Source: a virus. Taken from it: a stretch of DNA of 64,000 bases. Where the stretch lies: IMG/VR virus record IMGVR_UViG_3300010389_000010, positions 2,953 to 66,952 of that record; one strand, written 5' to 3'. Below the pieces are notes generated by a model. That model saw nothing but the letters and a program-made list of their open reading frames with translations, made no database searches and was not told the origin of the DNA. Positions 251 to 11,844 of this stretch are shown one piece after another; within the stretch, counting starts at the first letter, position 1, and every line of letters starts with the position of its first letter. The position numbers and the translations under genes were made by a program.

Positions 251-958
251 ATGAACTACATCAGCACAATTCCGCCCGAAATCGAGGAATACACCTTCTC
301 CGAACTGTCTCCGGAGGCACAGCAACACGCCATTGAGAAATGGTGTGAGACTGCCGGCGAACACATGGACTACGAATGGTGGGACTGCACCTATGACAGC
401 TTCAAAGCGGTCGCCACCATGATGGGTTACGACATCAGCAATATGTATTTCTCCGGCTTCTGGTGCCAGGGTGATGGCGCCTGCTTTGAAGGTGGGTGGA
501 GTCCGCCTGTTAATCCATATGAGATGCTCTGCAAGGTGCTCGACGAGTACCCTAAATGGGAGGAAATCCACGAGATCGCCCTGACACTGGCCGAGTGCGC
601 CGATGCGCTTGAGGATATGTGGGTTTCCTGCACCCTGACACACTCAGGGAGGTACTGCCACGAGAATACCGTCTCGATCGATGTGTCAATCGATTTCCCA
701 GAGGACTACGATGATTGGGATATCGCCAAGCAATCCGCCCATCGCGCAATCTGGATGGCGCGTGGACTCCCGGATCCTGATGATCCGCTTGACACTTGTG
801 GGTGGAGCGATGTTCTTCATGAAACATCCAAATCCCTCATGCGGATCCTGTATCGCATGTTGGAAGAGGATTACGAGTATCAGACCGGAGAGGAAGAGGC
901 CCGATATCGCTTGAGTGATGGCGATGATCTGTTTGATGCGGAAGGAGACATGGTATGA
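251..958 (+). CDS. Very acidic conserved phage/plasmid protein (YFSGFWxQGDGACF family)
   Basis: Motif YFSGFWCQGDGACFEG and C-terminal LYRMLEEDYEY; start chosen after the R1 RBS. Confidence 0.8.
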   Translation: MNYISTIPPEIEEYTFSELSPEAQQHAIEKWCETAGEHMDYEWWDCTYDSFKAVATMMGYDISNMYFSGFWCQGDGACFEGGWSPPVNPYEMLCKVLDEYPKWEEIHEIALTLAECADALEDMWVSCTLTHSGRYCHENTVSIDVSIDFPEDYDDWDIAKQSAHRAIWMARGLPDPDDPLDTCGWSDVLHETSKSLMRILYRMLEEDYEYQTGEEEARYRLSDGDDLFDAEGDMV

Positions 959-1377
959 GCAATTTTAGATTCCGCGTAGCTTTAGATGCCAGGGTTTATG
1001 GAGAGGTGGAGGCCGAAGCCGATAGCCTTGATGAGGCGCTGGAATTATGCACATCCAAGTATATCAGTGACAAATTCGTACCCGATACCGACGAAAATAG
1101 CGTCGACCCCAGTGAACAGAATGATGTCTTCATTATCGAAGGCATAGACGATGATGATGAAGAGTTTCAATGGACAGACTGTGGTGTGACTCTTGATGAT
1201 GACATGACCATCTGCTGGTCCACCTTTGTCTTGAAAGAAGAGTGGAAGGCCCTCACCCCGCTTCTCAACAAGATCGAAGATCCCCCCCCAATTCTTGTCG
1301 CACTACGCGACAGGTTTAACCGTCAAATGGCAGCCTATGTGGCCGACCGGATGACACAACACGACCCTCAATCATGA
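955..1377 (+). CDS. Acidic hypothetical protein
   Basis: ATGA overlap with the upstream stop; D/E-rich; stop codon falls inside R2. Confidence 0.8.
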   Translation: MSNFRFRVALDARVYGEVEAEADSLDEALELCTSKYISDKFVPDTDENSVDPSEQNDVFIIEGIDDDDEEFQWTDCGVTLDDDMTICWSTFVLKEEWKALTPLLNKIEDPPPILVALRDRFNRQMAAYVADRMTQHDPQS

Positions 1378-1385
1378 GCAAAGGA
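1364..1385 (+). repeat. Leader repeat R2 (ACCCTCAATCATGAGCAAAGGA)
   Basis: Consensus match; ATG at 1393. Confidence 0.85.
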
Positions 1386-1392
1386 ATGCACC

Positions 1393-2289
1393 ATGAATGC
1401 ACATACCCAGACTACCACCGGTGGGATATCCGACCGGGCCCTCGTTGTCAGCCTCACCATCTCTCAATGGTCTGGCCGACGCCTTGATCGCAAGATCACC
1501 GATGAAGTGAACCGCGATCACAATGCCGCTGCAGATGCAGGACGCTACAACAAGCTCCTGTTGCCCAAGGCAGCGCTTGATCCCATCCAGAAGGTGGTGA
1601 GCGAGACACGCAACGACTTCCTTCAGCGCACCCTTCCGTGGCTGAATGATGGCTCCCGTATCATGGCATCCATGGCCTTTCTGGACCATAAGCAATGGCT
1701 GAGTGGGCAGCGTGGCAAGTTCGACATTGCCGTGAACGATTTCCTTGCCGACTACGACAAGTATGTCCTTGAGGCACAGGTCCGTCTCAATGGCATGTTT
1801 GACCCGACGGACTACCCTGGTAAGGATGAGATTGCTTCCCGCTTCTCAATGAATGTCCGTGTCATGCCTGTACCTGAATCGGAAGACTTCCGTGTGGATA
1901 TGAGCGACGATATGGTGCAGGAGATCAAAGCCGAGATCACCAACAGCGTGAACTCTGCCGTGAATGAGGCCGTGTCCGATGTTTACCGGCGTGTTGCTGA
2001 TGTCACCGGCCGCATGGTTGAACGCCTCACCGCGTACAAGCCAGCCGAAGGCAAAGGCCAGAAGTCCGAAGGTATCTTCCGTGACTCACTGGTCGAGAAC
2101 GTGCGTGATCTTACCTCAATCATGCCAATGCTCAACATCACCGGAGATCCACGGCTTACCCGCATTGCGGATGAACTGGTTGATATCTCCAGGTTCGATG
2201 CATCGGTATTGCGTGAGGATCCTGTTGTCCGTGAGAACGTGGCGACTGAGGCTCAGCGCATCCTCGACTCCATCTCTGACTACCTCTGA
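1393..2289 (+). CDS. DUF3150-like protein
   Basis: LVVSLTISQWSGRR, AGRYNKLL, FLADYD and FDPTDYP resemble DUF3150-type proteins found beside MoxR/vWA genes. Confidence 0.65.
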   Translation: MNAHTQTTTGGISDRALVVSLTISQWSGRRLDRKITDEVNRDHNAAADAGRYNKLLLPKAALDPIQKVVSETRNDFLQRTLPWLNDGSRIMASMAFLDHKQWLSGQRGKFDIAVNDFLADYDKYVLEAQVRLNGMFDPTDYPGKDEIASRFSMNVRVMPVPESEDFRVDMSDDMVQEIKAEITNSVNSAVNEAVSDVYRRVADVTGRMVERLTAYKPAEGKGQKSEGIFRDSLVENVRDLTSIMPMLNITGDPRLTRIADELVDISRFDASVLREDPVVRENVATEAQRILDSISDYL

Positions 2290-2582
2290 TGGACCGGCAA
2301 GAAATCATCCGGCGTGCCCTTGGTGCGCCGGATATTATCCAAGGTGATGACACGATGTGGTGCACATTCGCTTTCCCTTGTGGAGGCGGGAGTGAAAAGT
2401 TTGAATACCAGGTTTACTACTGGCAAGACACCAATGAGTTTGAGTTCTTCAAGCGTCGAATGGACACTTACGACAAGGTCGATCTGCCAGTGAAAATGCA
2501 CCAACTCATCATGAATTGTTTAACCCCAGAATGCTTGGCACATTGTGCCGCATTGAGAATGACAGGAGAAGACCATGGGTGA
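2289..2582 (+). CDS. Small hypothetical protein with C-terminal L-x5-A-x5-RM tag
   Basis: TGATG coupling to the upstream gene; ends LTPECLAHCAALRMTGEDHG. Confidence 0.8.
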   Translation: MDRQEIIRRALGAPDIIQGDDTMWCTFAFPCGGGSEKFEYQVYYWQDTNEFEFFKRRMDTYDKVDLPVKMHQLIMNCLTPECLAHCAALRMTGEDHG

Positions 2583-3117
2583 CAGAGTATGGGCGTCCAT
2601 CGAGATCGGTGGACATATCAACAGCTTCGAAGCATTGGATGATTTGGTCAAGGCTATCCTTGATGAAGGAATCACATGCACCGAGACTGATATATACCTG
2701 AGCACAAGGCAAAAAGTTCTGAAGGCTTTGCACCACTGCGTTTCAGCCAACAAGCCAGTCGAGTTCTCTGGAGATGAGGTCAATTACGGCAAGTTCGGAG
2801 CAATAGACAGCGTCGTGGAGGAATATGGCTTGTGTTCCTCGACCAAATACCAAGCCGGTGGCGGGTTCCCAGAAGGTATCACAACAATCACCCTTGATGG
2901 CCGGGAGTACAACACTGCAACTTGTGAAGATGATCCAGTCATATGTCTATATGAGTTGGAGAACGCCGTCGGTGATGAAAGCAAGCCACTGAAAGATGTC
3001 CTGCTGGATATCGCTCAACTCATGTCCTACGCAAGATCATGCTCTGGGAGAGACCTTCCAAAGCTAACCATTGAGCCGCACATCCTTGCCGGATCCCGCA
3101 TGGTCGCGGCTGAATAA
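2575..3117 (+). CDS. Acidic hypothetical protein
   Basis: GGAG RBS, overlaps the upstream stop; ends LTIEPHILAGSRMVAAE. Confidence 0.8.
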   Translation: MGDRVWASIEIGGHINSFEALDDLVKAILDEGITCTETDIYLSTRQKVLKALHHCVSANKPVEFSGDEVNYGKFGAIDSVVEEYGLCSSTKYQAGGGFPEGITTITLDGREYNTATCEDDPVICLYELENAVGDESKPLKDVLLDIAQLMSYARSCSGRDLPKLTIEPHILAGSRMVAAE

Positions 3118-3127
3118 CAGACTACCA

Positions 3128-3155
3128 ACCCCCAAAAATGGAAACCAAAGGAGAC
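3128..3155 (+). repeat. Leader repeat R3, degenerate (ACCCCCAAAAATGGAAACCAAAGGAGAC)
   Basis: Partial consensus match; ATG at 3160. Confidence 0.6.
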
Positions 3156-3159
3156 TACA

Positions 3160-4143
3160 ATGAGCATCAAGAACGCAATCGCAATCCTGTCCGACTATCT
3201 GGACAATGACATACCCGCCTTCATGTGGGGCCCGCCAGGTGTCGGCAAGTCCGACGCTGTCAGACAGGTGGCCGCCGCTAGGAAGGTTGGTATGCTCGAC
3301 TTCCGTGCAATCCTGCGTGATCCGGTGGATCTTCGCGGTCTGCCTTCCGTTGCCGATGGCAGCGCAAGGTGGCTTCCACCTTCCGACCTGCCCAATGCAG
3401 AGCGTGACGGGAAGGAAGGCATCCTGTTTCTGGATGAACTTAACGCCGCACCTGCATCCGTGCAGGCTGCATGCTTCGGCCTTGTTCTCGACCGCAAGGT
3501 GGGTGAGTACAAGCTCCCAGATGGATGGCGTATCGTTGCAGCTGGTAACCGTCAGTCAGACCGTGCCGCTGCCCAACGCATGCCGACGGCTCTTGCCAAC
3601 AGGTTCGCTCACATTGACGTCAATGCAGACCACGAAGACTTCGTGGAGTGGGCTGAAGCCAACGGCATTGATCATGGTGTGATCGACTTCATCAAGTTCC
3701 GGCCCGGCCTGTTGCACAACATGGAAGGTGCAGATCAGCGTGCGTTCCCGACTCCACGGTCATGGTCCATGGTTTCGAGACTGAGCAAGCTCCCCATGGA
3801 GAGGCAACTCACCGCTGTTGAAGGTGTGGTTGGCAAGGGAGCCGCGGCCGAGTACATGGGCTTCGTGCGCCTTCGCAACCAGCTTCCTTCACTCAAGGAG
3901 ATCCTGGCCAATCCAGAAACGACCAGAGTTCCTGAGGAGCCGGGCGCAAAGTATGCCGTTTCCTCTGGTATCGCTCGTGTGGTGGACAAGGACACTCTGG
4001 GTGCTGGTGTGATCTATATGCGCCGTCTGCCGAAAGAGTTCTCTGTCATGATGATGACCGATGCGGTGCGTCGTGATAAGTCCCTGCGTGAAACCAAAAC
4101 CTACATCGATTGGGTCGCGGAGAACCAAGATGTCATCTTTTGA
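3160..4143 (+). CDS. MoxR-like (AAA_5-type) AAA+ ATPase
   Basis: Walker A GPPGVGKS, Walker B ILFLDELN, sensor IVAAGNR, arginine finger ALANRF, PTPRSW. Confidence 0.92.
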   Translation: MSIKNAIAILSDYLDNDIPAFMWGPPGVGKSDAVRQVAAARKVGMLDFRAILRDPVDLRGLPSVADGSARWLPPSDLPNAERDGKEGILFLDELNAAPASVQAACFGLVLDRKVGEYKLPDGWRIVAAGNRQSDRAAAQRMPTALANRFAHIDVNADHEDFVEWAEANGIDHGVIDFIKFRPGLLHNMEGADQRAFPTPRSWSMVSRLSKLPMERQLTAVEGVVGKGAAAEYMGFVRLRNQLPSLKEILANPETTRVPEEPGAKYAVSSGIARVVDKDTLGAGVIYMRRLPKEFSVMMMTDAVRRDKSLRETKTYIDWVAENQDVIF

Positions 4144-4486
4144 TTGGCCGGATAGATTCCGCGATCCTCTAACGGGCTGGTTTCTGACCGGCCCGTTCAT
4201 TGTCTCCCAAGTTCCGGATGAGCTTGTCATCTTCACGTTCCATAGTGATGATGGAATGCAGTTTATCTCTCTGATCTTTGGAAAGATCAAAGGCGCCGGT
4301 CATTGGGGCCTGAGTATGTCAGATCAGGACGGGCAATTTTTCACATTTACTGATGGATTCGATATGAAAGCGCCTGGGAATATACGTCCCATGACGGAGG
4401 TATATCTGAGGGAAATTGAATTCCTGAAGGGGAGACTGACAACCAAGCAACACGCCTTGGTAACATCCATCAAGATGAGGGGATAG
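4130..4486 (+). CDS. Small hypothetical protein with C-terminal L-x5-A-x5-KM tag
   Basis: GGAG RBS before ATG 4130; ends LTTKQHALVTSIKMRG. Confidence 0.75.
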   Translation: MSSFDWPDRFRDPLTGWFLTGPFIVSQVPDELVIFTFHSDDGMQFISLIFGKIKGAGHWGLSMSDQDGQFFTFTDGFDMKAPGNIRPMTEVYLREIEFLKGRLTTKQHALVTSIKMRG

Positions 4487-4487
4487 C

Positions 4488-4841
4488 ATGTACCATTTCA
4501 AGATAATCTATCCCCCCATTGCCGATCCAGAAAACGAAAAACATCTGAAGGAACGGGTGGCTACCCCAAGTTTCATCACGCTCAGCTACTATTTCAATTG
4601 CGTGATGATCGACGGTTCAATCCAGTTCTACAATCTGTCTTGGATCTGTAAAACATCCAGGTTTAATGTGACCAACCTCACTGGCAAAAAGGAGCAGAAC
4701 ATAGTCAACCCACATATGTTCACCGGTGACCTGTCAAAGCGGCTCACCATATCATCTGTTCAGAAAGTGAAAGATGCCTTGGTTCCAAGGCTTAAACCGG
4801 AGCACCTTGCCCAGATAACATATGCAAGGATGCTCAACTAA
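4488..4841 (+). CDS. Small hypothetical protein with C-terminal L-x5-A-x5-RM tag
   Basis: Starts 1 nt after the upstream stop; ends LKPEHLAQITYARMLN. Confidence 0.75.
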   Translation: MYHFKIIYPPIADPENEKHLKERVATPSFITLSYYFNCVMIDGSIQFYNLSWICKTSRFNVTNLTGKKEQNIVNPHMFTGDLSKRLTISSVQKVKDALVPRLKPEHLAQITYARMLN

Positions 4842-4863
4842 CCTGCAATCATGCACGAAAGGA
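4841..4863 (+). repeat. Leader repeat R4 (ACCTGCAATCATGCACGAAAGGA)
   Basis: Consensus match; ATG at 4870. Confidence 0.85.
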
Positions 4864-4869
4864 AACACC

Positions 4870-6030
4870 ATGAACGCTGAAACCCTACTGGTAGCAGCAA
4901 AGACAACGCTGATGTTCGACAACCCATTCTTCGGGATGCTGTGTGTGCAGCTCCCACTGGTTGAAGATCCGTCATGCGAAACCATGGCGACCGATGGTCA
5001 GAAGCTGTACTTCAATTCCAAGTTCGTCCAGTCGCTGACCAAGGCAGAGCTGGTCTTTGTTGTCGCCCATGAAGTGCTGCACAATGCCTTCGAGCACCAT
5101 GTCCGGAGACAGCACCGAGATCCACGGCTCTGGAACATAGCCGCTGACTACGCAATAAACGGCGAGCTCGTGGAATGCGGTTTCACCATGCCCAAGTGCG
5201 GCCTGATCCACAAGGACTTCACCGGACTGAGTGCGGAAGAGATCTACCGGATCCTCGGAGACGACAGCAAGAGACCTGCCGATCTGCCAGATCCTGGCGC
5301 AATCCCTGGCTCAAGTGATCCCGGGGGTTGCGGCCGCATCATGGATGCAGCTGACGCCCATGACAAGGATGGACTCGAGAGAGCAAGGGCAGAGGCACGG
5401 ATGATGGTCGCTCAAGCCGCTGCGGTGGCTGCCAAGAAGGCAGGCAAGCTGTCTGCCAATCTGCAGCGCCTGATCAACACCCTGCTCACACCTGTAGTGG
5501 ACTGGCGTGCTGTGTTGCGTCGTTTCATCGACGAGTCCAACTCTCGTGACTACTCATGGACCAGACCAAACCGTAGATACCTCAGCTCTGGCTTCATCCT
5601 GCCGGGCATGGTGACGGATGGCATATCTCACATCACCATAGCCGTGGACACATCAGGCTCGATCGACAACGATATCCTGTCCCGCTTCGCTTCCGAGATC
5701 AACGGTGCCTTCGGTGATGGGATGATCGACAAGATCACTGTGATCTATGCGGATAGCAATGTGTGTGCTGTCGAACGGTTCGAGGCTGGCGATGAGCTGA
5801 AGCTCAACCCTGCTGGTGGTGGTGGCACTGCATTCTCCGACACCTTCGACTGGATTGCGAAGAACGAACCCGACACCAACGCCATCATCTACTTCACAGA
5901 TCTCTATGTCTCTGACTTCGGCCAGGATCTGGGGATCCCCACCTTGTGGGCAGTATATGGTGACAGTCGAGAGTTCGAGAGACTGTCTGCAAAGGTTCCC
6001 TTCGGTGAATGTGTCAGCGTGTCAGAATGA
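4870..6030 (+). CDS. DUF2201-type putative metallopeptidase fused to a vWA-like domain
   Basis: TMATDG, HEVLH (HExxH), WNIAADYAIN; vWA MIDAS AVDTSGSI, GGGGTAF, YFTD. Confidence 0.9.
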   Translation: MNAETLLVAAKTTLMFDNPFFGMLCVQLPLVEDPSCETMATDGQKLYFNSKFVQSLTKAELVFVVAHEVLHNAFEHHVRRQHRDPRLWNIAADYAINGELVECGFTMPKCGLIHKDFTGLSAEEIYRILGDDSKRPADLPDPGAIPGSSDPGGCGRIMDAADAHDKDGLERARAEARMMVAQAAAVAAKKAGKLSANLQRLINTLLTPVVDWRAVLRRFIDESNSRDYSWTRPNRRYLSSGFILPGMVTDGISHITIAVDTSGSIDNDILSRFASEINGAFGDGMIDKITVIYADSNVCAVERFEAGDELKLNPAGGGGTAFSDTFDWIAKNEPDTNAIIYFTDLYVSDFGQDLGIPTLWAVYGDSREFERLSAKVPFGECVSVSE

Positions 6031-6437
6031 AGAGGACAAAACCAATAAACATGCACGGCCAGACAGGCACGTCGTGCAAGTTCGTTAAGATCCTCGGCCC
6101 TTTCAAGATGTCATCCACAAAGGACAGTGTGACATGGTATTTTGCAGGGAAGCTGCATCAGGGTCATGGATACCCAAGCAATGACCGGATATCGAGCGGC
6201 TATTGCATGCCAATTCTGATCTTCAATTATCGTTTGGGTAAATGGCGTGCAACCTGGGCAAGTCTGAAAAATGATGACGTCAATTCTATAACGTCCATGA
6301 TGGACAGCCTGTTCCCAACATCAAACATGAACACCACTGACTACCCGAGTGGAAAGCTGACCGATGTTCTCAAGGAGATGCTCACCAGAGAAGACATGGC
6401 AAGGGCAGCGTCCGCCCGGATGACCGGAGAACACTAA
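6027..6437 (+). CDS. Small hypothetical protein with C-terminal L-x5-A-x5-RM tag
   Basis: ATGA overlap with the vWA gene stop; ends LTREDMARAASARMTGEH. Confidence 0.75.
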   Translation: MKRTKPINMHGQTGTSCKFVKILGPFKMSSTKDSVTWYFAGKLHQGHGYPSNDRISSGYCMPILIFNYRLGKWRATWASLKNDDVNSITSMMDSLFPTSNMNTTDYPSGKLTDVLKEMLTREDMARAASARMTGEH

Positions 6438-6462
6438 CCCGCAATCATGCGAACAAGGAGAC
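6437..6462 (+). repeat. Leader repeat R5 (ACCCGCAATCATGCGAACAAGGAGAC)
   Basis: Consensus match; ATG at 6467. Confidence 0.85.
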
Positions 6463-6466
6463 TGCA

Positions 6467-6892
6467 ATGAAATACTCAATAAGCCAGCTGGTTGAGGCCA
6501 CGATCTGCGTCGGAGGTCAAGGCGACAGCATGGACAACAGCTACAAGTTCCTCGTGAAGAAGAAAGGCGACGCCGAATATCATGCCATTCTTCTCAATGT
6601 GAAGACGCAGGATCGGAAGAGAGGCCATCGATTTAGCGACATCGACAAACCAAAGATCGAATACAAAACCAGATGGCTTTACGCCGGCCACTATTCGATC
6701 GATCTCGAGCAACCCTTCAAGGATCTTGCCCTCTCCGACGTGGTGGAGTCAGACAAGAAGCTGGTGGACGCACTGTTTGACCGTCTGCCTGCCACACACA
6801 AGGCGCAGATCGCTTCAGTTAGAATGCTGGCAGGACAGCGAGGGCGCCATGCAAAAAAGGAAATGGAACATGAAAAAAGTGAACGAATTTAA
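6467..6892 (+). CDS. Small hypothetical protein with near-C-terminal L-x5-A-x5-RM tag
   Basis: Strong RBS in R5; contains LPATHKAQIASVRMLAG. Confidence 0.8.
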   Translation: MKYSISQLVEATICVGGQGDSMDNSYKFLVKKKGDAEYHAILLNVKTQDRKRGHRFSDIDKPKIEYKTRWLYAGHYSIDLEQPFKDLALSDVVESDKKLVDALFDRLPATHKAQIASVRMLAGQRGRHAKKEMEHEKSERI

Positions 6893-7304
6893 TTACCATG
6901 ACTACAACGTCGAGCAGTTCAATCTTTCCCACATGGAGTCAGCTTTAGCCGTCTGGGAATGGATCAATGAGGTCACATTGATCGTCGAAGGACATGACTG
7001 GCACATCACTGAGTGGGTGGATCTGCGTGGAAACATCGGATCCATTGAATTGCGCATGCAATCTGTACCGATAGGTATCTGGGTGGATGAAGTCATTCAA
7101 GGCGTGTTCAAGTTAATCGGCTCTGATTCCTATGAGGACACCTTCCATGAGATCGACATGTTGTCCTGGGATTTCGAAGTGTTTCCCCACATCTTGAGTA
7201 ATTACCTGAAGGACAAAGCAGGCAAGCCTGTTATCTATCAACAGGACTTCCCCAATCCAGAAGATATCGCAATGGTCTTGGCCGCCCAGATCCGGATGGC
7301 CTGA
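6870..7304 (+). CDS. Hypothetical protein
   Basis: AAGGA RBS before ATG 6870; ends PNPEDIAMVLAAQIRMA. Confidence 0.75.
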   Translation: MKKVNEFNYHDYNVEQFNLSHMESALAVWEWINEVTLIVEGHDWHITEWVDLRGNIGSIELRMQSVPIGIWVDEVIQGVFKLIGSDSYEDTFHEIDMLSWDFEVFPHILSNYLKDKAGKPVIYQQDFPNPEDIAMVLAAQIRMA

Positions 7305-7311
7305 CACCAAC

Positions 7312-7337
7312 CCCCGCAATTATGCACGAAAGGAGAC
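7312..7337 (+). repeat. Leader repeat R6 (CCCCGCAATTATGCACGAAAGGAGAC)
   Basis: Consensus match with one core mismatch; ATG at 7342. Confidence 0.85.
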
Positions 7338-7341
7338 TACA

Positions 7342-10344: not shown

Positions 10345-11844
10345 ATGAACGTGCCACTAAAACGCGCGACCATAGAAGAGATGGTCCAACAACGAGACGA
10401 AGTCCTGGCCATGTACGAAGCCGCCCACCTGAAGGTGATCGAAGCGGCCGAGGCCATGGAAAAAGCCAACGTCAAGATGAACTACATCACCCCGGGTGAC
10501 AACTCATTCACCTATTCCACCGCCAAAGAGGTCGAGAATTTCCAGAAGGTGGTGACCCCTATGGATCATGCCAAGTTTCTGGCTGTCTGCCGCCGCCTCG
10601 TCGATATCAGGGTGTGGACCTACATCATCGAGCGCACAGACATTGAGCGCCTGATGGACAAGGAAGCCAAGAACCAGCTCCGGGATCAGATGAAGTACGT
10701 TCCAGAGCACACCAATAGATCCGGTGAGATCATCAACCAGGAAGAACTCGACAAGTGCATGCCACCAGTCACTGTGGACAACGTCTATGCCACGCTCGAG
10801 AAATTCATGGCAGACTCCAACATGATATGGCAGCGTGGTGTGGCCAACGTGTTCTCGAAGCTGGACCGCCGGTTCAAATCCCACGACGGGTTCAAGATTG
10901 GCGACCGGATCATTCTCGATCGAGCCTTCGATGATTGGGGCGGCTGGAACTACCATCGCAATATGCAGGACTCGATTCGTGACATTGAACGGGTGTTCCT
11001 GATCCTTGATGAGCAGGATCCACGCGCCACCTATGGAAGCATCATCAGTGTAATTGATCGTGAACGCAGAACCAGGCACAACCCTACTCAATCCGAACAT
11101 GAGGGTGAATTCTTCCGCATCCGGATATTCAAGAACGGCAACGCCCATCTCTGGTTCACCCGTAAGGATCTCCTGCAGAAGGTGAACAAGATCCTGGGCG
11201 AGTGGTACGGTGAGGTTGTCGGTGACGGCCGCAAGGGCGAGGAAGATCCGTTCTCCAATCCAAAGACAGCCCCTGCCAAGTTCTATGGCTTCTACCCGAC
11301 GCCTGAAGAAGCAGCCCAACGCCTGATTGAGGGCTCTCTGTACGGTGAGAGGACGCTTCGGATACTGGAACCATCGGCCGGTACCGGGAACCTCTCCAGG
11401 TTGGCTGCCACGCCTCAGGAATATAAGTATTGGGTGGATCGTGAACAGAAGATCAAGATAGTCAACCACAAGGTGGACTGCATCGAGATCCAACCGCAAT
11501 TGGCAGAGGCTCTGACCAATGAGGGGATCTACAACAGGGTTACCTGCTCTGACTTCCTTGCGATCACACCATCACCTGATTACGACCTGATCCTGATGAA
11601 CCCGCCGTTCGATCTGGAGCGGGACATTGATCATGTGGTGCACGCACTCAAGTTCCTGAAGGAAGGTGGCCGGTTGAAAGCCATCATGTCTGCTGGTACT
11701 GAGTTCCGCAACACCAAGAAGTCGATCGCGTTCCGTAAGTTGATGAATTCGATGGGAGCAGACTGGAGAGATCTCCCGAGCTGCTCCTTCTCATCGGTAG
11801 GAACCAACGTGAACACGATCACAGTCAGCGTCTGGAAGAGGTAG
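10345..11844 (+). CDS. DUF4942-domain protein with C-terminal class I SAM-dependent (N6A/N4C-type) DNA methyltransferase
   Basis: NVFSKLDRRFKSHDGFKIG, FFRIRIFKNGNAHLWF; motif I ILEPSAGTG and motif IV MNPPF. Confidence 0.85.
   Translation: MNVPLKRATIEEMVQQRDEVLAMYEAAHLKVIEAAEAMEKANVKMNYITPGDNSFTYSTAKEVENFQKVVTPMDHAKFLAVCRRLVDIRVWTYIIERTDIERLMDKEAKNQLRDQMKYVPEHTNRSGEIINQEELDKCMPPVTVDNVYATLEKFMADSNMIWQRGVANVFSKLDRRFKSHDGFKIGDRIILDRAFDDWGGWNYHRNMQDSIRDIERVFLILDEQDPRATYGSIISVIDRERRTRHNPTQSEHEGEFFRIRIFKNGNAHLWFTRKDLLQKVNKILGEWYGEVVGDGRKGEEDPFSNPKTAPAKFYGFYPTPEEAAQRLIEGSLYGERTLRILEPSAGTGNLSRLAATPQEYKYWVDREQKIKIVNHKVDCIEIQPQLAEALTNEGIYNRVTCSDFLAITPSPDYDLILMNPPFDLERDIDHVVHALKFLKEGGRLKAIMSAGTEFRNTKKSIAFRKLMNSMGADWRDLPSCSFSSVGTNVNTITVSVWKR

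What the first reader, a model, noticed from the sequence alone, without database searches (positions are those of the whole stretch)
1330..7304. Shared C-terminal peptide tag (L-x5-A-x5-[RK]-M) on unrelated small proteins around the AAA+/metallopeptidase genes
Seen: five ORFs with no other visible similarity carry the same spacing: LTPECLAHCAALRM-TG (2520-2561), LTTKQHALVTSIKM-RG (4436-4477), LKPEHLAQITYARM-LN (4791-4832), LTREDMARAASARM-TG (6381-6422) and LPATHKAQIASVRM-LAG (6785-6826). Four end within 2-6 residues of it. Weaker versions close 955-1377 (MAAYVADRM-T), 2575-3117 (LTIEPHILAGSRM) and 6870-7304 (PEDIAMVLAAQIRM-A). Codons differ (AGA, AAG, AGG, CGG), so conservation appears to be at protein level. 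I did not see the pattern at the end of late or replication proteins. Inference: an amphipathic recognition helix marking clients of the co-encoded DUF3150/MoxR AAA+/HExxH-vWA machine for cleavage, remodelling or activation, or a virion-loading or degradation signal for a set of effectors. I know of no described system with this layout.
Basis: partly seen in the sequence, partly recalled or inferred. Interest (0 to 1): 0.9.

Follow-up and report, generated by a model that had tools for sequence, protein, structure and literature searches.

The report
Small-protein paralogue family, not a tag
The shared C-terminal motif is real, but it is the last helix of one uncatalogued family of small phage proteins that has multiplied between the genes of an ATPase/protease module, not a portable tag on unrelated proteins.

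Summary
L-x5-A-x5-[RK]-M closes five neighbouring + strand ORFs (expected by chance 0.06; DNA of the tags only 33-60% identical).

The interpretation does not hold. A profile of the N-terminal 60 columns, built only from proteins of other genomes, picks four of the five ORFs as the top four of 875 window segments. At least 195 representative clusters, nearly all 85-150 aa, match the family profile end to end. AlphaFold models place the motif as a very confident final helix of a compact strand-plus-helix domain. In some relatives 35-70 residues follow it. The three "weaker" tags are not members.

The family has no Pfam, PHROG or convincing PDB match. In all 12 informative contexts it lies as an array of 3-7 fast-evolving paralogues between a MoxR-like AAA+ gene (N4 gp24 type) and a metallopeptidase-vWA gene (DUF2201, N4 gp25 type). 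The contexts are temperate alphaproteobacterial and marine or estuarine phages. More distant phages with the module lack it.

My best guess is that these are diversifying accessory or targeting subunits of that module. This is inferred from synteny only; a complex prediction gave no verdict. Six relatives end in an SSB-like DDDIPF tip.

The scan has noted MoxR/DUF2201 pairs with a variable third gene on other DNA.

The parts
2289..2582 (+). Family member 1 (97 aa). Its start overlaps the stop of the DUF3150-like gene. Motif helix at 2520-2561.
   Evidence: Strict motif. Whole-family profile E 6.6e-9 over profile positions 15-104. N-terminal-only profile E 2.9e-5.
4130..4486 (+). Family member 2 (118 aa from the ATG at 4130; the ORF is open from 4061). 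It overlaps the end of the AAA+ gene. Motif helix at 4436-4477.
   Evidence: Strict motif. Whole profile E 1.7e-6 over positions 4-103. N-only profile E 2.2e-4.
4488..4841 (+). Family member 3 (117 aa). Motif helix at 4791-4832.
   Evidence: Whole profile E 8.4e-14 over positions 2-103. N-only profile E 5.3e-9. AF2 model has pLDDT 85.6, with the motif as helix 104-116. It matches the same AFDB cluster as member 4.
6027..6437 (+). Family member 4 (136 aa from the ATG at 6027, an ATGA overlap with the peptidase stop). Motif helix at 6381-6422.
   Evidence: Whole profile E 3.7e-13. N-only profile E 2.7e-5. AF2 model has four strands and three helices, with the motif as helix 121-133. AFDB hit A0A212LQT8.
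6467..6892 (+). Divergent member 5 (141 aa). Only the C-terminal helix pair is detectably related. Motif at 6785-6826, followed by a 21-residue basic tail.
   Evidence: Profile match to positions 64-103 only, E 0.004. hhalign P 8.7e-5 over 31 columns. The N-only profile does not find it.
1393..2289 (+). DUF3150-like core gene (298 aa).
   Evidence: Pfam PF11348 E 1.1e-4, below the curated cut-off. Homologues at 48-56% identity in six of the family-bearing loci and weaker ones in 19 other module loci.
3160..4143 (+). MoxR-like AAA+ ATPase (327 aa), N4 gp24 type.
   Evidence: PF07728 AAA_5. phrog_1297 E 1.5e-95. JWAlpha gp33, annotated as similar to N4 gp24, is a 33% tblastn hit.
4822..6030 (+). 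Zn-metallopeptidase-vWA protein (DUF2201_N + DUF2201), N4 gp25 type. The real start is probably the ATG at 4870.
   Evidence: PF13203 E 4e-53 and PF09967 E 4.7e-22. phrog_1314. H83-E84-x-x-H87, H92 and D276-x-S278-x-S280 are invariant in 23 homologues.
955..1377 (+). NOT a member: 'weak tag' ORF.
   Evidence: No profile hit. hhalign P 0.074.
2575..3117 (+). NOT a member: a separate conserved 180-aa family.
   Evidence: No hhalign similarity. Its own homologues are L038:4325-4834 and L040:3912-4421.
6870..7304 (+). Probably NOT a member: it belongs to another family, though its last helix resembles the motif.
   Evidence: hhalign P 0.003 over 18 columns only. Its homologue L046:9339-9812 aligns over residues 24-128.

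Best explanation
The five tagged ORFs are diverged paralogues of one previously uncatalogued small-protein family of about 95-140 aa. The fold begins with an N-terminal 'h-x-G-P-F' strand, followed by a three-strand meander with conserved W-x-F, [WY]-x-L-x-[FY] and R-x-F. A linker with P-F follows, then a two-helix C-terminal hairpin. The family consensus there is L-[SPT]-P-E-D-[ILV]-A-x-[AC]-T-A-[AL]-[AS]-[ILM], and [RK]-M is this phage lineage's version. The helix is rich in small residues, conserved on almost every face and modelled with very high confidence, so it is above all a structural element of the domain.

The family exists as arrays of 3-7 translationally coupled copies. These evolve faster than the module and sit between (and, in this window, also just after) the genes of a MoxR-like AAA+ / metallopeptidase-vWA / DUF3150 module. 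The carriers are one clade of temperate phages and prophages.

Inferred, not shown: the copies are diversifying accessory subunits (adaptors or clients) of that chaperone-peptidase. The conserved core would give a common handle, and the variable sheet surface and C-terminal tail would give different targets.

The confidence of 0.8 is for 'paralogue family with a structural helix, module-embedded'. The functional coupling to the module alone I put at about 0.45.
For: - Motif and statistics.
- C-terminal similarity extends over 25-36 residues.
- Relatives L001, L030 and L035 carry 3-7 tandem copies that share N-terminal motifs.
- There are 195 representatives at E<=1e-3. Nearly all are 85-150 aa and match profile positions ~1-109.
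- N-terminal columns are conserved as strongly as the helix (W26, F28, L42, R49, F51 against L92, A98).
- The N-only foreign profile finds four window ORFs as its top hits. The whole profile aligns them end to end.
- AF2 models: pLDDT 72.7 and 85.6, with the motif helix at 91-96. Both hit the same AFDB cluster (TM 0.56-0.70).
- The helix is internal in L038:7411-7806, L038:7803-8240, P0156 and others.
- Synteny AAA+ -> array -> peptidase-vWA in 12 of 12 informative contexts, including 1-2 kb metagenome contigs.
- Orthologues are 68-96% identical where module proteins are 95-98% (L038 vs L040), and 29-36% against 59-66% (L030 vs L038).
- The paralogues are ancient in the Mesorhizobium-type prophages: the AU test rejects one clade for L030's seven, p 3e-62.
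Against: - ORF 6467-6892 shows only the C-terminal part by sequence. One copy could therefore be a true domain swap.
- The profiles used were built from representatives that were themselves recruited with an alignment containing the window proteins. This is a mild circularity, although no window residue is in those profiles.
- Earlier N-only profiles from only 4-14 foreign sequences did not reach significance (hhalign P 0.008).
- Functional coupling to the module rests on gene order within one clade (peptidase 52-60% identical, plus L048 at 41%). It could therefore be inheritance rather than function.
- Phages with more distant modules work without the family.
- The complex prediction gave no verdict.
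Confidence: 0.8

Rival explanations
1. One reading: a portable amphipathic C-terminal recognition helix marks otherwise unrelated client proteins for the DUF3150/MoxR/peptidase-vWA machine, for cleavage, remodelling, loading or degradation.
For: ORF 6467-6892 shares only the helix pair. 131 of 151 representatives end within 10 residues of the helix. The helix is conserved on nearly all faces, which would fit a second, intermolecular contact. It co-occurs strictly with the module.
Against: Four of the five carriers are homologous over the whole length. The family matches end to end in 190 or more clusters. The motif was found on no other kind of protein in the window or in 47 loci. The helix is buried-type (Ala/Cys/Thr/Ser-rich), has pLDDT above 90 within the fold, and is internal in several members.
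Confidence: 0.07
2. The family consists of fast-evolving host-takeover or anti-defence proteins that act on their own. It merely occupies a permissive, co-transcribed slot inside the early/replication operon, so the link with the module is historical rather than functional.
For: Orthologues diverge much faster than the flanking module. Copy number and content differ between close relatives. The family is restricted to one clade of the module. Extra copies lie outside the AAA+/peptidase interval: window 2289 and 6027-6892, L030:3046-3420, L038:12178-12459. Six members carry an SSB-like tip that points to host replication and repair proteins.
Against: The AAA+ -> array -> peptidase order is kept in every context sampled, down to 25-30% identity between family members. 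In other clades that interval is empty or holds the module's own DUF3150 gene, so it is not a general insertion hot spot.
Confidence: 0.3
3. The proteins are small nucleic-acid-binding proteins (SpoVG/PUR-like sheet-plus-helix) that work in phage replication or recombination. The conserved aromatic and Arg residues on the strands would form the binding face.
For: The best PDB match is SpoVG: 2i9z, Z 5.4, rmsd 3.4, 72 residues aligned. Pur-alpha gives Z 3.6-3.8. Weak WGR, Pur-alpha and SP_0782 rows appear. The family lies among SSB, RecT, helicase and beta-clamp genes. Some members have an SSB-Ct-like tip.
Against: All structural scores are in the range the tool describes as common for unrelated folds: Z below 8 and Foldseek E above 0.1. 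The conserved aromatics may simply be core residues. No sequence-level link to any known DNA- or RNA-binding family.
Confidence: 0.12
4. Chance or compositional coincidence.
For: The motif is short and degenerate, and about 3 matches are expected in six frames of 64 kb.
Against: There are four to five matches at ORF ends against 0.058 expected, and 0 of 5000 shuffles reached 3. The motif is conserved in homologues from other genomes.
Confidence: 0.005

Closest known systems
MoxR AAA+ / metallopeptidase-vWA pair of phages: N4 gp24/gp25 type, phrog_1297 + phrog_1314, and group 2.2 jumbo phages (Iyer et al. 2021, PMC7824862)
   Same: The window's 3160-4143 and 4822-6030 genes are members. They have the AAA_5 domain, DUF2201_N with an invariant HExxH...H, and a vWA with DxSxS. 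The paper describes the pair as a chaperone/co-chaperone with a fused peptidase.
   Different: Neither that paper nor Pfam or PHROGs describes an array of small paralogues between the two genes. N4-like JWAlpha and 27 of 28 viral loci lack the family. The published proposal (virion assembly) is itself untested, and here the module sits in the early/replication arm.
MoxR-VWA systems with a dedicated neighbouring client: CbbQ-CbbO/Rubisco, NorQ-NorD/NO reductase, RavA-ViaA (from my own knowledge of these systems)
   Same: An ATPase plus a vWA adaptor, with the gene of the served protein next to them. This is the logic behind reading the embedded paralogues as clients or adaptors.
   Different: Those clients are single large enzymes, not multi-copy 100-aa proteins that evolve faster than the module. 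No binding has been shown here (one search gave no verdict).
Tandem arrays of diverged, translationally chained small paralogues in phage early operons (an ordinary phage accessory-gene pattern; compare scan note e1-3414559)
   Same: Head-to-tail, overlapping or abutting small genes that evolve faster than the module, with variable copy number.
   Different: This family keeps a fixed position inside one enzyme module across 25-30% sequence identity. It is a different family from the one in that note.
C-terminal recognition tags and degrons (ssrA type) read by AAA+ machines
   Same: A short conserved C-terminal segment on several proteins encoded next to an AAA+ ATPase.
   Different: Such tags are unstructured, terminal and portable. 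Here the segment is a packed helix of a conserved domain, it is sometimes internal, and it is not found on other folds.
SpoVG (PDB 2i9z)
   Same: Best structural match: a sheet followed by a C-terminal helix, Z 5.4 over 72 residues; it ranked third for the other model at Z 3.2.
   Different: The score is below the level that separates relatives from common arrangements, and there is no sequence similarity.

Membership tests
Portable C-terminal tag / degron on unrelated proteins | Carriers share nothing but the tag | tested here: not met
   The N-terminal-only profile from foreign sequences finds four of five carriers at E 5e-9 to 2e-4. End-to-end alignments.
Portable C-terminal tag / degron on unrelated proteins | Tag lies at the extreme C-terminus and is accessible | tested here: inconclusive
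   The tail is under 10 aa in 131 of 151 representatives but 21-56 aa in eight of them, and about 70 aa in L038:7803-8240. The helix is modelled as packed, pLDDT 94-96. No coordinates were available to measure burial.
Portable C-terminal tag / degron on unrelated proteins | Tag is bound by the co-encoded AAA+/vWA/DUF3150 proteins | tested here: inconclusive
   The complex prediction of 4488-4838 with the peptidase-vWA gave a median score of 0.01, so no verdict. The AAA+ hexamer and DUF3150 were not tested.
   Met for 2289, 4130, 4488 and 6027. Only the C-terminal part is met for 6467. Not met for 955, 2575 and 6870.
   The models of 6027 and 4488 both match AFDB cluster A0A212LQT8 (TM 0.56/0.66 and 0.67/0.70). 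The other three copies were not modelled.
MoxR AAA+ / metallopeptidase-vWA phage module (N4 gp24/gp25 type) | AAA_5-type ATPase next to a DUF2201_N + DUF2201 protein with intact HExxH and MIDAS DxSxS | tested here: met
Any Pfam-A or PHROG family (for the small proteins) | Significant profile match | tested here: not met
   0 of 75 members match Pfam (E<=0.01) or PHROGs (E<=0.001). The window proteins also have no match.
SpoVG / PUR / WGR-type nucleic-acid-binding folds | Convincing structural superposition (Z about 8 or more, or Foldseek E<=1e-3) | tested here: not met
   Best Z 5.4 (SpoVG), with Pur-alpha at 3.6-3.8. All Foldseek PDB rows have E>=0.14.

The most novel reading that the evidence does not exclude
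The paralogues are interchangeable targeting subunits of a phage MoxR/vWA-metallopeptidase. Each copy would dock through the conserved helix-hairpin/GP core and present a different surface or C-terminal peptide (in some, an SSB-tail mimic). The ATPase-peptidase would then remodel or cleave a panel of host proteins. This would be a programmable host-takeover machine, and it would give the long-unexplained N4 gp24/gp25-type module its first candidate clients.
Probability: 0.12. Interest if true: 0.8.

Novelty: new variant of a known kind. Interest (0 to 1): 0.42.

Why it matters
The MoxR-like ATPase / peptidase-vWA pair is a core or frequent gene set of N4-like phages, many jumbo phages and other mobile elements. 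In one search, 738 phage records matched the peptidase. It still has no demonstrated function.

A clade in which 3-7 paralogues of one small protein family, evolving faster than the module, are wedged between the two genes offers concrete candidate partners to test. This could make the module's role experimentally approachable.

The result also corrects an attractive but wrong reading. The 'tag' is a fold element of an unannotated family with at least 195 clusters at 50% identity and no Pfam or PHROG entry, which deserves a family model.

The SSB-tail-like tips on some members give a specific, cheap hypothesis about host targets.

Tried and rejected
- **Complex prediction** of member 4488-4838 with the peptidase-vWA (own alignments A4 and A3): run scores 0.01, 0.51 and 0.00, median 0.01. 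No verdict, so it is not used as evidence either way.
- **Fold searches** of both models (PDB Foldseek, VIA-align wide, AFDB clusters, ESM Atlas). Only a family member in AFDB matched; no known fold was convincing. The ESM Atlas look-up of 4488 and a PDB sequence search were uninformative.
- **Early small N-terminal profiles** (4-14 sequences) failed to cross-detect window and foreign copies; hhalign was only P 0.008. The 151-sequence profile settled it.
- **'Weaker tags'** at 955, 2575, 6870 and 7342 were rejected as members.
- **P0011 and P0040**, giant eukaryote-like repeat proteins, top the representative search through 13 and 6 weak repeats that match only the helix-hairpin columns. I judged this a repeat-summed artefact, not homology.
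- **Is [RK]M in all five copies co-evolution with a shared partner?** The AU test does not reject the window's five forming one clade (p 0.40). Simple descent therefore suffices and the test is uninformative.
- **Is the family derived from DUF3150 or from the peptidase?** No similarity.
- **Nucleotide searches** of phage and plasmid collections with 12 kb found nothing.


Full report
**1. Setting**

The window is almost all of a complete 67,165-bp IMG/VR virus record. One sequencing run, from an estuary metagenome, holds the stretch. The phage has a contractile tail: it encodes a tail sheath and a tape measure protein. It also encodes a large terminase, a fused protease-capsid protein, a DnaB-like helicase, a primase, an exonuclease and methyltransferases.

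The finding lies in a + strand arm that reads as follows:
- a DUF3150-like gene (1393-2289);
- a MoxR-like AAA+ ATPase (3160-4143; AAA_5, phrog_1297);
- a DUF2201_N/DUF2201 metallopeptidase-vWA protein (4822-6030; phrog_1314);
- further downstream, a DnaN clamp.

In 23 homologues of the peptidase, the HExxH...H site and the MIDAS DxSxS are invariant.

**2.

A regular-expression scan of all six frames finds the strict motif eight times. With 92 non-overlapping ORFs, residue shuffling gives 0.058 ORFs with the motif in the last 40 residues. The observed count was four, plus the fifth ORF that my ORF filter dropped. None of 5000 shuffles reached three.

The tag DNA is only 33-60% identical between copies, so this is protein-level conservation and not a DNA repeat. 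BLASTP and a seed HMM show that the similarity covers about 25-36 C-terminal residues rather than 14.

**3. The carriers are paralogues**

The nearest viral relative is L001 (peptidase 59% identical). It has four tandem small genes between its AAA+ and peptidase genes. Their ends read L[SKA]P..h[AV]....A.h, and their N-terminal halves are plainly alike.

A word-indexed search led to Mesorhizobium/Phyllobacteriaceae prophages. L030 has six copies in tandem between the two genes and a seventh upstream of the DUF3150-like gene. L035 has three.

An exhaustive profile search of 1.84 billion representatives gave 195 proteins at E<=1e-3. Nearly all are 85-150 aa and match profile positions about 1-109, so this is a whole-length family.

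Column statistics on 151 representatives show N-terminal positions as conserved as the helix:
- G9-P10-F11, W26, F28, L42, F/Y44, R49 and F51 in the N-terminal part;
- L92, A98 and [ILM]105 in the helix.

[RK]-M occurs only in the window phage and in the L041/L042 metagenome contigs (L042 is from a marine sample).

The key test used a profile of the first 60 columns only, built solely from non-window sequences. It ranks four of the five tagged ORFs as the top four of 875 window segments, with E 5e-9, 2.7e-5, 2.9e-5 and 2.2e-4. The full profile aligns the same four end to end. ORF 6467-6892 is recovered only through its C-terminal helix pair.

One caveat applies. The representatives were recruited with an alignment that included the window proteins. 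Smaller foreign-only profiles had failed earlier.

**4. Structure**

AlphaFold2 with family alignments gives compact domains.
- For 6027-6434: four strands and three helices, pLDDT 72.7.
- For 4488-4838: pLDDT 85.6 and pTM 0.77, with strands at 2-7, 31-40, 45-53 and 58-63 and helices at 94-101 and 104-116.

The motif is the final helix and is among the most confident parts of the model (block means 91-96).

Both models hit the same uncharacterised AlphaFold DB cluster, A0A212LQT8, and nothing else convincingly. The best PDB match is SpoVG at Z 5.4. Pur-alpha, WGR and immunity-protein rows are weaker. All of these fall within the range the tool calls common arrangements.

No Pfam, PHROG or PDB-sequence match exists for any of 75 members.

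The helix is rich in Ala, Cys, Thr and Ser and is conserved at 10 of 12 positions. I read this as tight packing; that is an inference, because I had no coordinates. In several relatives 35-70 residues follow the helix, so it does not need to be terminal.

**5. Context**

Every context I could read keeps the order AAA+ -> family array -> peptidase-vWA. These are the window, L001, L030, L035, L038/39, L040, L041/42, L043, L045, L046 and L047. L048 is partial. The sampled members were chosen to be as little as 25-30% identical to any already seen.

Family-bearing loci form one clade of the module, with peptidase 52-60% identical to the window's (L048 at 41%). L002 (48%), 26 further viral loci and the N4-like phage JWAlpha lack the family. 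In many of those other clades the DUF3150 gene itself lies between the ATPase and the peptidase, or the two genes abut. The interval is therefore not a general insertion hot spot.

Family orthologues evolve faster than the module:
- L038 vs L040: 68-96% against 95-98%;
- L030 vs L038: 29-36% against 59-66%.

In the tree, the seven paralogues of L030 are not one clade (AU p 3e-62), so the paralogues are ancient. The window's five may be one clade (p 0.40), so their common [RK]M needs no special explanation.

**6. Interpretation**

Shown:
- the motif is real;
- it belongs to a whole-length paralogous family;
- the family is structurally coherent and uncatalogued;
- it is embedded in the module in every context sampled.

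Inferred:
- the helix is mainly structural;
- the proteins are accessory subunits (adaptors or clients) of the MoxR/vWA-peptidase.

The only published view of such modules that I found is a proposal that the MoxR-vWA-peptidase pair of group 2.2 jumbo phages is a virion-assembly chaperone with processing activity (PMC7824862). That proposal is untested. The one complex prediction I could run gave no verdict.

The main rival is that these are independent host-interaction proteins, evolving faster than the module, that sit in this operon for historical reasons. Their evolutionary rate, and copies lying outside the interval, fit that reading too.

**7. The weaker tags**

- 955-1377: hhalign P 0.07.
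- 2575-3117: no similarity, and it has its own homologues in L038 and L040.
- 6870-7304: P 0.003 over 18 columns, but it is homologous over residues 24-128 to a different protein, L046:9339-9812.

None of these is supported as a member.

**8. Earlier notes of this scan**

Earlier notes describe the same module on this stretch. On other DNA they describe several MoxR/DUF2201 pairs with a variable third gene. These notes are leads that fit the client/adaptor idea, not evidence for it.

**9. Verdict**

The idea of a tag on unrelated proteins is not supported. What is there is a new small-protein family forming paralogue arrays inside a known but functionally unexplained phage ATPase-peptidase module. 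Interest is moderate.

Noticed in passing
L030:8710-9009; L043:1365-1655; proteins P0023, P0118, P0128, P0149, P0151, P0153: Six of 153 family representatives end, just after the conserved helix, in an SSB C-terminal-tip-like peptide (..DDDIPF..PDDIPF..EDDVPF..NDDLPF..EEDLPF..DDGLPF). In 6684 six-frame segments of the held loci, the only other segments ending this way are genuine SSB genes. The members L030:8710-9009 and L043:1365-1655 form one supported subfamily in the tree. This may be mimicry of the SSB tail.
   Followed up: partly
P0011 (1981 aa), P0040 (1076 aa): Giant eukaryote-like proteins built of ~90-residue repeats (LYRALTG...GGDLSKAVRERLTDNEIGKCSAALAGKGV) top the representative search. 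They match only the helix-hairpin columns, 13 and 6 times. This is probably a repeat-summed artefact; the repeats look annexin-like (from memory).
   Followed up: no
window 2575-3117; L038:4325-4867; L040:3912-4454: The 180-aa ORF after family member 1 belongs to a separate conserved family (33-35% identity). It lies between the DUF3150-like and AAA+ genes in relatives too, and has no Pfam or PHROG hit.
   Followed up: partly
window 4822-4870: The peptidase-vWA ORF is open from 4822, but homologues begin at the equivalent of MNAETLL (ATG at 4870, preceded by AAAGGAAA). The 20-nt overlap with the family member 4488-4841 is therefore probably not real.
   Followed up: partly
L004-L010, L016, L021, L025, L027 versus window: Gene order of the trio differs between clades. 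In many viral contigs the DUF3150 gene sits between the AAA+ and peptidase genes (gap about 0.9-1.0 kb). In L002, L014 and L023 the two genes abut. In the window's clade DUF3150 is upstream and the paralogue array fills the gap.
   Followed up: partly
L034:8965-10133 versus L035:8961-10121: In one Mesorhizobium assembly the peptidase-vWA gene is called as two ORFs (203 + 182 aa). The near-identical contig L035 has one 386-aa gene. This is a frameshift or an assembly error in a prophage copy.
   Followed up: no
L046:7945-8541; L038:7803-8240; L038:7411-7806: Some members carry extensions. One is a 198-aa protein with the family domain at its C-terminal end (residues ~131-216). Others have 35-70 extra residues after the helix.
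   Followed up: partly
window 10345-11844; L045:9188-10729: A DUF4942 protein (fused to a methyltransferase in the window) follows the module in the window. A DUF4942 gene also follows it in prophage L045, so synteny extends beyond the module.
   Followed up: no
window 3145-3159, 6452-6466, 7327-7341: Near-identical leaders (A)AAGGAGACT[AG]CA directly before the ATG of 3160, 6467 and 7342.
   Followed up: no
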